This document shows positions 2,696 to 3,574 of a DNA stretch of 64,000 bases, one piece after another. Each line of letters opens with the position of its first letter. Position 1 is the stretch's first letter. The notes under the pieces were generated by a model, which had not been told where the DNA came from, searched no databases, and saw only the letters and a program-made list of their open reading frames with translations. The stretch comes from a virus. Its lineage: Duplodnaviria > Caudoviricetes. The DNA lies in IMG/VR virus record IMGVR_UViG_3300025723_000013; one strand, given 5' to 3'. A program made the position numbers and the translations under genes.

Positions 2696-3142
2696 AGTGA
2701 GCTAAAGCTCACTAGCTTCTTCACCTATCGGTTCGAAGCATTTTTTAACACAATGATCTTTGATATACATTCATGCAGATTGTATAGTCAGACGGAACCA
2801 TTTCGCTGGTTCCGTCTTTCTTGGTGATTTTCATGCGAGTTGCACTAGCCAAGACATGGGAAGTAGGTACTATGTTTATACACCTCTCCTGGGACTCTGT
2901 ACTTTTCCTGCCTACTACGACGCATTATCAATGTCGATAATGCCCAAAGCTCGTTCCTGATCCTTTGGGTGTTTAGGAGTAATGGTGTTTGCGAATGACA
3001 GCAATCATTCTACGTCAATACTTAGAGCCTCAGACTTGCGGGGCAATGTCTCAACGTGTTGCGTGTGTAGTTTCACCCACTACCTTTTCCACAGCGGTAT
3101 TATGACCGGCCCGCTAACCTTGTGTGCTGTACTGGATTTTGC
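2696..3142 (-). ncRNA. Candidate large structured ncRNA (family unassigned)
   Basis: About 450 nt with no credible ORF on the coding strand, in an otherwise gene-dense genome, and visibly more GC-rich than flanks. Perfect helices: 2696-2702/2707-2713, 2790-2800/2807-2817, 2819-2824/2849-2854, 2862-2867/2911-2916, 2922-2929/2936-2943, 2943-2949/2963-2969, 2993-2998/3005-3010. Confidence 0.7.
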
Positions 3143-3574
3143 CTAGAGTTTTTTAATAATATGTGAGCCGTGTACGCGAACTCTTATCTGATTGTTGTAA
3201 TAATCAGTTGATTCCAACACCTGATGTTCAAATTGCAGCTTTGCTTCCATGTAGGAGCATTCGGCCTTTGATTTACAAAACAGTAATATTTCGCGTTTGA
3301 AATTTTCTTTGCCTAATTTTTCTATGTCTTGAGTGAGTTCTTTTGATGAGCCGTGATATGTTTGCCAGTCTGATTCTATGGTGCTTTTGATTTTTTTGCG
3401 CTTTTTTTTGCCATTTTTTAACTTGACCATTCTATATTTTGTTTTTGAAAATGCCGCGAGTTTTTTTCCAATATACTTTCTGCCAGAAATTAAATTTGTA
3501 ATAAGATAAACAAATCCTGCACAATCTTGAGGAAGTTCTGTTATTTCCATTCCTTGATAATGCCATGACATCAA
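3143..3574 (-). CDS. GIY-YIG family endonuclease-like protein (Seg-like)
   Basis: FVYLITNLISGRKYIGKK motif, Lys-rich insert, and SDWQTYHGSS...F.REIL...E...YYN pattern typical of phage GIY-YIG proteins. Confidence 0.75.
   Translation of the reverse strand: MMSWHYQGMEITELPQDCAGFVYLITNLISGRKYIGKKLAAFSKTKYRMVKLKNGKKKRKKIKSTIESDWQTYHGSSKELTQDIEKLGKENFKREILLFCKSKAECSYMEAKLQFEHQVLESTDYYNNQIRVRVHGSHIIKKL

What the first reader, a model, noticed from the sequence alone, without database searches (positions are those of the whole stretch)
2696..3574. GIY-YIG protein immediately followed by the structured RNA: possible nuclease-RNA (RNP) module
Seen: the structured region begins directly after the GIY-YIG stop codon (3143) on the same strand. 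The protein is a minimal 143-aa GIY-YIG with an extreme Lys/Arg insert (KLKNGKKKRKKIKS) and none of the long DNA-binding C-terminal domain of typical homing endonucleases. Established: other compact nucleases work with adjacent structured RNAs (IscB-omegaRNA, TnpB, HEARO). Inference: the basic insert may bind the RNA, and the RNA may supply specificity or scaffolding. This is speculative.
Basis: inference. Interest (0 to 1): 0.7.

Follow-up and report, generated by a model that had tools for sequence, protein, structure and literature searches.

The report
Giant-phage RNA shared with satellites
A large, intricately folded RNA sits beside a small DNA-cutting gene in giant aquatic bacterial viruses, but it also turns up without that gene in small viruses and bacterial islands that seem to parasitise them, and it most likely marks the place where DNA copying starts.

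Summary
The RNA is real: a ~375-nt element (minus strand, about 3144-2770) with 59 covarying or conserved pairs and three pseudoknots. It follows the SegE-type GIY-YIG gene (PF19835) in 73 of 76 informative jumbo-phage relatives. It is unlikely to be that nuclease's partner: three very different RNA types follow GIY-YIG proteins up to 98.6% identical; a PD-(D/E)xK nuclease can take the gene's place; near-complete 30-kb phages and Polynucleobacter chromosomal islands carry the element with no GIY-YIG; the basic insert also occurs in RNA-less homologs. Type B's 5' third is Rfam Polynucleobacter-1; the window's type A has no Rfam match. Two 11-nt direct repeats change together in identity, with no complementary partner, and are followed by DNA-type mini-hairpins like one downstream of the ColE1 origin. 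Best reading (0.45): an RNA-primed R-loop replication origin, analogous to ColE1 RNA II, exchanged between phages as a cassette and borrowed by satellites lacking recognisable replication genes. Expression and origin activity are untested. The scan's earlier notes hold nothing on this RNA.

The parts
3143..3571 (-). SegE-type minimal GIY-YIG nuclease gene (142 aa from ATG); neighbour of the element, probably a branch/junction-cutting nuclease of the gp47-gp46 operon
   Evidence: invariant Y22, Y33, G35, K36, K37, E109, N126; model pLDDT 85.6, best structural match I-TevI catalytic domain Z 8.4
3371..3460 (-). Lys/Arg-rich insert (L38-S67), a long beta-hairpin; family-wide, not RNA-specific
2770..3144 (-). 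Type A structured RNA (about 375 nt); the conserved AGGC at its 5' edge overlaps the GIY-YIG stop codon
   Evidence: AGGC near the 5' edge in 139 of 170 distinct RNAs; ends inferred from conservation, not mapped
2993..3130 (-). 5' domain: pseudoknot 1 (3130-3125 with 3003-2998, the loop of hairpin 3010-3006/2997-2993); helices 3116-3111/3097-3092, 3083-3080/3070-3067, 3057-3051/3018-3012
   Evidence: helices 1-5
2863..2979 (-). Core: helix 2979-2975/2890-2886 crossed by 2915-2911/2867-2863; hairpin 2908-2906/2894-2892 whose 11-nt loop pairs (2901-2899) with 2918-2916; helix 2969-2964/2948-2943
   Evidence: helices 6-10; five pair types at one position of the loop pseudoknot
2830..2840 (-). Direct repeat 1 (11 nt)
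2791..2816 (-). 9-bp hairpin between the two repeats
   Evidence: helix 11: conserved, one-sided changes only
2770..2780 (-). Direct repeat 2 (11 nt); its last 7 letters equal those of repeat 1 and change with them across relatives
2715..2739 (-). Tail hairpin 1: C(GATA)G loop with flanking GA/GA mismatch; variant of the family's GA-GCGNNAGC-GA DNA mini-hairpin
2697..2712 (-). Tail hairpin 2 (6 bp, followed by TTTT); C(GNA)G-looped in half of the relatives
2679..2689 (-). T4-type late-promoter-like motif for the downstream Ala/Pro-rich gene (1881-2672)
   Evidence: the T4 late consensus is recalled

Best explanation
The element is a cis-acting, RNA-primed replication origin of a clade of T4-like jumbo phages, working like ColE1 RNA II. 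SHOWN: a folded RNA-type structure of 350-430 nt, one copy in each complete genome examined, three sequence types swapped as a cassette, ending in two co-varying direct repeats, followed on the same strand by DNA-type mini-hairpins, and carried by two kinds of GIY-YIG-free elements that have T4-type late promoters and no recognised replication genes. INFERRED: transcription from the gp55-gp47-gp46-GIY operon (or from a late promoter in the satellites) makes the RNA; its fold presents repeat 1, which pairs with the DNA template strand of repeat 2 (this is why the two must stay identical); a lasting R-loop forms; the RNA 3' end primes DNA synthesis and the displaced strand folds into the mini-hairpins where helicase/primase load. 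The small phages and islands are satellites that use the jumbo phage's replisome through a copy of this origin. The GIY-YIG is a replaceable junction/branch nuclease of the recombination operon, linked by operon structure, not the RNA's protein partner.
For: Identity covariation without a complement: type B columns 309:360, 313:364 and 315:366 agree in 91 of 91 sequences while varying (GG50/AA41; AA55/GG36; TT73/AA15/GG3); type A 61 of 61 and 60 of 61; type C 34 of 35 twice; repeat position 1 needs 31 changes on the protein tree; 6 of 7 island copies concordant. ColE1 precedent for an RNA stretch pairing with the template strand: PMC4412123 passage; RNA II of 550 nt and helicase loading on the non-template strand: PMC5043065 passage. 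Tail: GCGN(N)AGC in 134 of 193 tails against about 5% background, 18 of 193 bodies; C(GNA)G-capped stems in 96 of 192 tails, 0 of 600 random windows, 0 of 199 bodies, while 100 of 199 bodies have GNRA loops; such mini-hairpins are DNA-stable and occur at G4, ssiA and N4 initiation sites (PMC13037366 abstract and passages). The GA-flanked form is in 120 of 193 tails and once in ColE1, at 1331 on the RNA II strand, about 135 nt past the inferred origin. Single copy in 2 of 2 complete jumbo genomes. Cassette exchange. Satellite-like carriers: G001 98% and G002 100% complete; 10 distinct small phages among 17 loci; 7 island loci with two tyrosine integrases and a clamp-loader-like ATPase.
Against: No expression, RNA-end or R-loop data at all. 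No skew switch at the element; uninformative for recombination-driven replication, but not support. No sequence likeness to RNA II/RNA I (no Rfam match). Plain GCGN(N)AGC occurs 21 times in ColE1, so only the GA-flanked form is distinctive, and that this site is ColE1's primosome assembly site is recalled, not read. The window's own tail lacks the exact mini-hairpin, and its second hairpin followed by TTTT could be a terminator. Only 48 of 90 small-phage ORFs were scanned and several small-phage and island ORFs are unannotated, so a hidden initiator is possible. No jumbo phage with the small phages' repeat variant was found (0 of 17), nor with the island core pattern (0 matches), so no matched helper-satellite pair is in hand. 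The GIY-RNA junction is still more rarely interrupted than its neighbours.
Confidence: 0.45

Rival explanations
1. A trans-acting RNA (scaffold, ribozyme or protein sponge) of the jumbo phage; the twin repeats bind a two-fold symmetric protein or pair with each other through like-with-like (A.A/G.G) contacts; satellites carry a copy as a mimic or because they need the same activity.
For: Three pseudoknots and many invariant unpaired letters, as in catalytic or RNP RNAs; in small phages and islands it has its own late-promoter-like motif upstream; L056 has it inverted, apart from the operon's direction.
Against: Does not explain the DNA-type hairpins that always follow it and are shared between types; no residue of the neighbouring protein tracks the repeats; three interchangeable folds are odd for one catalytic activity.
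Confidence: 0.25
2. A cis element for another DNA transaction: an entry site (R-loop or nicked cruciform) for the sliding clamp that activates late transcription, or a packaging initiation site; the GIY-YIG or PD-(D/E)xK nuclease nicks the tail cruciform.
For: A late-promoter-like motif follows the tail in 133 of 192 loci; islands encode a clamp-loader-like ATPase; in small phages the element lies between tail-fibre and terminase genes; a nuclease of one fold or another precedes it in nearly all jumbo loci.
Against: Small phages have their own terminase and many late promoters far from the element; a clamp entry site does not need a 375-nt RNA.
Confidence: 0.13
3. One reading: the GIY-YIG binds the RNA through its basic hairpin and the RNA gives it specificity; satellites copy the RNA to recruit or soak up the helper's nuclease.
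For: Adjacent in 63 of 76 protein-first loci and in the same operon in 73; RNA-first: GIY upstream in 71 of 76 and 75 of 77; the junction is rarely interrupted; minimal nuclease with a long basic beta-hairpin.
Against: 98.6%-identical proteins with different RNA types; replacement by a PD-(D/E)xK nuclease beside type A (L100, L120) and type B (L450) RNAs; basic insert in RNA-less homologs; no guide-like variable end; no repeat-residue covariation.
Confidence: 0.1
4. Only a structured 3' untranslated region with a two-way terminator pair at the end of the operon.
For: It lies where convergent operons meet in many loci; the window has an A-run before tail hairpin 1 and a T-run after hairpin 2.
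Against: Ordinary terminators of these phages are GC-rich with TTCG/GNRA loops; three pseudoknots, cassette exchange and transfer to unrelated elements are not needed for a terminator.
Confidence: 0.05

Closest known systems
Polynucleobacter-1 RNA motif (Rfam RF01718; Weinberg et al. 2010, PMC2864571)
   Same: It is the 5' 141 nt of the type B RNA that fills the same slot after the same gene (9 of 17 loci scanned) and of the island copies (7 of 7). Types A and B share the 3' part (window RNA hits type B loci L028, L049, L050, L076 at E 3e-7 to 9e-5).
   Different: The window's type A RNA does not match the model. The motif is only a third of a 350-430-nt element; the paper's table lists it as a possible cis-regulatory RNA of Burkholderiales with 16 representatives and the main text says nothing else.
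ColE1 RNA II / origin / displaced-strand primosome site
   Same: Long folded non-coding RNA; an RNA stretch that pairs with the template strand; a GA-flanked C(GNA)G hairpin downstream on the RNA-like strand; no encoded initiator needed.
   Different: No sequence similarity; phage-borne; 7-11-nt mixed-sequence repeats rather than a G-run; three exchangeable types; no antisense RNA I shown; function here inferred only.
T4 oriF/oriG R-loop origins (PMC4412123 passage)
   Same: T4-like phage, transcript-dependent origin.
   Different: T4 origins are a middle promoter plus an unwinding element; no covarying, pseudoknotted RNA is described for them in that passage.
SegE-like GIY-YIG, PF19835 / phrog_447 (mislabelled 'NAD synthetase')
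   Same: The protein is a full member; 759 phage records hold relatives under 60% identity.
   Different: In three cultured phages examined the gene leaves no room for the RNA; here it behaves as a fixed, replaceable gene of the gp47-gp46 operon, not a sporadic homing endonuclease.
OMEGA systems (IscB-omegaRNA/HEARO, TnpB-reRNA) (recalled)
   Same: Compact nuclease gene next to a structured RNA.
   Different: GIY-YIG rather than RuvC/HNH; single copy, no transposon context; no variable guide; RNA and gene separable.
Phage satellites (PICI, PLE) (recalled; search listing only)
   Same: Integrase-bearing island with helper-type promoters; small genomes short of replication genes.
   Different: No primase/Rep recognised; they share a large RNA element with the presumed helper; one class has its own capsid, tail and terminase.

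Membership tests
PF19835 SegE_GIY-YIG | HMM score above the curated cut-off | tested here: met
   120 bits against 25, residues 3-129
GIY-YIG nuclease superfamily | Fold and catalytic residues (two Tyr motifs, metal-binding Glu, Asn) | tested here: met
   Y22, Y33, G35, E109, N126 invariant in 38 and in 160 sequences; best fold match 1ln0, Z 8.4, rmsd 2.7, 78 aligned; role of each residue assigned from recalled I-TevI/Seg motifs
GIY-YIG nuclease superfamily | Nuclease activity and substrate | not testable with these tools
   needs biochemistry
Free-standing Seg homing endonuclease | C-terminal DNA-binding domain | tested here: not met
   142 aa, the domain fills the protein
Free-standing Seg homing endonuclease | Sporadic presence at an insertion site | tested here: not met
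   fixed slot in the gp47-gp46 operon; when absent, another nuclease fills it
Polynucleobacter-1 (RF01718) | Covariance-model match at the gathering score | tested here: not met
   none in the window or type A/C loci; met for type B relatives
Polynucleobacter-1 (RF01718), full-length element | Shared 3' core (11-nt-loop hairpin, twin repeats, hairpin, tail) | tested here: met
OMEGA (IscB/TnpB/HEARO) | RuvC or HNH nuclease | tested here: not met
OMEGA (IscB/TnpB/HEARO) | Variable guide at an RNA end; multi-copy mobile element | tested here: not met
   ends conserved; one copy in 2 of 2 complete genomes
OMEGA (IscB/TnpB/HEARO) | Obligate gene-RNA pairing | tested here: not met
Group I intron with GIY-YIG ORF | Interrupts a host gene; matches group I models | tested here: not met
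   lies between complete genes of changing identity and direction; no Rfam match
tmRNA / RNase P RNA / tRNA-like | ARAGORN or Rfam match | tested here: not met
ColE1-type RNA-primed origin | Long folded non-coding RNA upstream of the start site | tested here: met
   structure by covariation; transcription itself not shown
ColE1-type RNA-primed origin | RNA segment pairing with the downstream template strand | tested here: inconclusive
   identity covariation of the repeats fits but has other readings
ColE1-type RNA-primed origin | Hairpin signal on the displaced strand | tested here: met
   its function is inferred
ColE1-type RNA-primed origin | Antisense RNA I and sequence homology to RNA II | tested here: not met
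   RF00106 found in ColE1, not in the window
ColE1-type RNA-primed origin | Persistent R-loop and replication in cis | not testable with these tools
   needs experiment

The most novel reading that the evidence does not exclude
A widespread clade of freshwater and marine jumbo phages starts DNA replication from an RNA-defined origin: a 350-430-nt triple-pseudoknot primer RNA whose repeat re-anneals to the template at a twin repeat. The origin exists as three interchangeable types with drifting repeat 'passwords', shaped by conflict with two unreported classes of satellite (30-kb tailed phages without replication genes, and Polynucleobacter islands) that carry the same origin to be copied by the helper's replisome.
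Probability: 0.38. Interest if true: 0.88.

Novelty: new variant of a known kind. Interest (0 to 1): 0.72.

Why it matters
It turns a 141-nt orphan motif from 2010 into a family of large, triple-pseudoknot RNAs with three types, a host genus (Polynucleobacter) and testable covariation. If it is an origin, it answers how a major group of uncultured jumbo phages begins replication, gives a second natural case of a folded primer RNA beside ColE1, and gives a sequence tag for satellites that cannot be found by replication genes. Even if the origin reading fails, repeats that co-vary in identity with no complement are a rare signal that needs an unusual mechanism, and the RNA is a ready structural target.

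Tried and rejected
Rfam on the window, ARAGORN: nothing. blastn of type A, B and C RNAs against 50,697 phage records: no match, so no cultured phage with the element was found. Repeat as a nuclease target or genome-wide signal: no over- or under-representation of a genome's own variant, and no third co-varying site in 148,795 aligned bases of G006 against G007. Repeat read by the GIY-YIG: best residue explains 0.2 of the information at type B position 1; higher values in the small type C set come from highly variable columns. Complementary partner inside the RNA: none among the top 45 column pairs per type. Skew tests: no switch at the element. Family searches for PF19835 and PF24608 rang nowhere, controls included, and were replaced by protein searches with positive controls. 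Pattern scans of cellular genomes were mostly chance: no RNA hit among the loci, two strong hits on tiny contigs among 120. The 195-of-197 figure picks the best-matching pair and is biased; the alignment-based counts are the ones relied on. (a gapped pattern) had the wrong spacing. PDB sequence search gave no real relative. C/D-box, sigma-70 promoter and group I/RNase P readings of the motifs were considered by eye and dropped (order or invariance of motifs does not fit). Literature: searches found no paper on this element beyond the 2010 table; most subscription journals are outside the library.

Full report
1. Setting and observation. The window is part of an 88-kb virus record of a T4-like jumbo phage: late sigma factor, gp47, gp46, accessory genes, the GIY-YIG, the non-coding stretch, two Ala/Pro-rich genes, then convergent baseplate genes. 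The ORF at 3143-3574 is PF19835, folds like the I-TevI catalytic domain and keeps the family's invariant residues. The 456 nt after its stop fold at z -4.09 on the same strand and match nothing in Rfam or ARAGORN.

2. The RNA is real and comes in three types. Of the best 80 relatives fetched from viral contigs (522 passed, 80 kept), 63 have a conserved 350-430-nt element directly after the gene (4 type A like the window, 42 type B, 17 type C), 10 have it after an inserted gene, 1 has it inverted upstream, 2 have none and 4 are too short. On 28 type A sequences, 59 pairs in 11 helices are 96.7% paired with 260 two-sided changes, against 88 in shuffles and 20-31 in slid controls; three helices cross others. 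Types B and C show their own covarying helices and pseudoknots. All types end alike: an 11-nt-loop hairpin, repeat 1, a hairpin, repeat 2; the window's RNA hits the 3' part of four type B loci. The 5' 141 nt of type B is Rfam Polynucleobacter-1 (9 of 17 loci scanned). That motif appears in one paper of the library, PMC2864571, of which I saw passages of the main text, a supplementary table row and the head of the alignment file; its Additional files 1 and 3 could not be read and may mention neighbouring genes.

3. The link to the GIY-YIG is strong but breakable. RNA-first scans: for type A, of 80 loci with long flanks 2 were chance, 2 too short, 71 had the gene upstream, 5 did not (40 further loci with short flanks left out); for types B/C, of 119 loci 6 had no RNA, 36 were too short, 75 had the gene, 2 did not. 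The GIY-RNA junction is interrupted less often than those on either side. Against a partnership: (a) RNA type needs 22 changes on the protein tree (minimum 2; the tree is poorly resolved, and starred branches force only 5, 4 and 2 per type), and proteins 98.6% identical precede type A and type C RNAs, with DNA 95-96% identical up to the stop codon, no alignment across the RNA, and similarity resuming at a 43-nt tail; (b) a PD-(D/E)xK nuclease (PF24608 for L100; L120 and L450 recognised by likeness) fills the slot beside types A and B, and was not found in four GIY-bearing records, two of them complete; (c) L044/L047 carry a 66%-identical protein next to ribonucleotide reductase genes with no RNA, and three cultured phages leave no room for one; (d) the basic insert is in these too. 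The simplest role for the protein is a junction or branch nuclease of the recombination operon (inference from the replacement; untested).

4. Who else carries the element. Three type A loci lie in small tailed phages; two records are 98% and 100% complete at about 30 kb and have no SegE-type gene, while three jumbo controls rang. Of their 90 ORFs, 48 were scanned: terminases, portal, capsid, tape measure, HNH/endonuclease VII, no polymerase, primase, helicase or initiator; the rest were judged by eye as virion genes. They have T4-type late-promoter motifs before structural genes. A scan for their repeat variant gave 17 loci, 10 distinct, all in this family and none with a GIY-YIG. Seven cellular loci (six titled Polynucleobacter, one short MAG contig) hold the whole type B element with repeats and tail, in an island beside tRNA/tmRNA-like 3'-end repeats with two tyrosine integrases, a clamp-loader-like ATPase and late-promoter motifs, and no recognised primase or Rep; four of these genomes have no match to the protein. 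I read both as satellites of the jumbo phages (inference; no helper-satellite pair was matched).

5. Two odd features point to a DNA-level job. First, the repeats co-vary in identity (91 of 91 at three type B positions), with no complement in the RNA, no matching residue in the protein and no genome-wide signal. The one complement that changes automatically is the DNA template strand, so RNA from one copy pairing with the template of the other explains it. ColE1 has such an RNA-template contact (PMC4412123, passages seen). Second, the tail is DNA-like while the body is RNA-like: C(GNA)G-capped stems in 96 of 192 tails, 0 of 199 bodies and 0 of 600 random windows; GNRA loops in 100 of 199 bodies; GCGN(N)AGC in 134 of 193 tails against about 5% background. 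These mini-hairpins are far more stable as DNA and are reported at G4, ssiA and N4 initiation sites (PMC13037366, abstract start and passages seen). The GA-flanked form (120 of 193 tails) occurs once in ColE1, about 135 nt past the origin as placed from RNA I and the 550-nt length; I looked there because I recalled the primosome assembly site, and no passage read confirms the identity (PMC5778457 passages describe the phiX174 site only). Ordinary terminators of these phages look different. The window's tail is a variant with a three-pair inner stem.

6. Mechanism. Best reading (0.45): an RNA-primed R-loop origin. Steps shown: structure, single copy in 2 of 2 complete genomes, cassette exchange, repeats, tail, carriage by GIY-free elements. 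Steps inferred: transcription, re-annealing of repeat 1 at repeat 2, priming, helicase loading, satellite use of the helper's replisome. Against it: no RNA data, no skew signal, possible hidden initiators, no matched pair. Rivals: trans-acting RNA (0.25), clamp-entry or packaging site (0.13), nuclease RNP (0.10), terminator region (0.05).

7. Comparison and novelty. The protein is an ordinary PF19835 member (PMC1564403 passages on Seg and Endo II seen). The element is not an OMEGA RNA, group I intron, tmRNA or RNase P RNA by the tests listed. It works like, but is not, ColE1 RNA II, and it extends Polynucleobacter-1, of which the window's type is not a model match. Searches (listings only) found no account of the full element, its types, its repeats or the satellites. 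Class: new variant of a known kind; interest 0.72, because the family, the identity covariation and the satellites stand whatever the mechanism.

Noticed in passing
window 5781-9089 (-): gp46 is fractured: the N-part (8817-9089) ends in an intein-like start, the C-part (5781-7772) begins with an intein remainder (PF14890, weak), and a free-standing 366-aa ORF (7748-8848, no Pfam match, endonuclease-like C-terminus by eye) lies between: a split-intein gene with an inserted endonuclease (arrangement recalled as known).
   Followed up: partly
window 5304-5567 (-): Histone H1-like Hc1 gene (PF07432) between gp46 and the GIY-YIG; present in several relatives.
   Followed up: no
window 3571-5307 (-): Glycosyltransferase and methyltransferase genes inserted just upstream of the GIY-YIG; this slot is a hotspot for accessory genes.
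   Followed up: no
window 1423-2672 (-): Two Ala/Pro/Thr-rich ORFs that end in nearly the same 16-residue motif; the first follows a late-promoter-like motif.
   Followed up: no
L329-L333, L627-L643: Family of 25-35-kb tailed phages with own capsid, tail and terminase, T4-type late promoters and no recognised replication genes: candidate satellites of the jumbo phages.
   Followed up: partly
L500-L506: Polynucleobacter island of about 8 kb with two integrases, clamp-loader-like ATPase, DUF6641, late promoters and a repeated 16-nt palindrome (6 copies in L506).
   Followed up: partly
L100, L120, L450: PD-(D/E)xK nuclease (PF24608) replaces the GIY-YIG in the same slot, a hint that PF19835/phrog_447 (labelled 'NAD synthetase' in PHROGs and GenBank) is a resolvase-like enzyme.
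   Followed up: partly
L388 2874-3131 (oriented as): Type C RNA in a different jumbo-phage setting, after GroES-like and MazG-like genes, with no GIY-YIG in the 92-kb record (26% complete).
   Followed up: partly
L056: RNA and its downstream gene are inverted and lie upstream of the GIY-YIG, pointing away from it.
   Followed up: partly
L083, L086, L089, L090, L093, L108, L112, L124, L129 and others: Many contigs end 50-200 nt into the RNA, as expected if related phages share it or swap types.
   Followed up: no
window 2760-2788 (+): Sigma-70-like promoter (10 of 12) that would make RNA antisense to the element; the number of such sites in the region is near chance (12 against 8.4).
   Followed up: no
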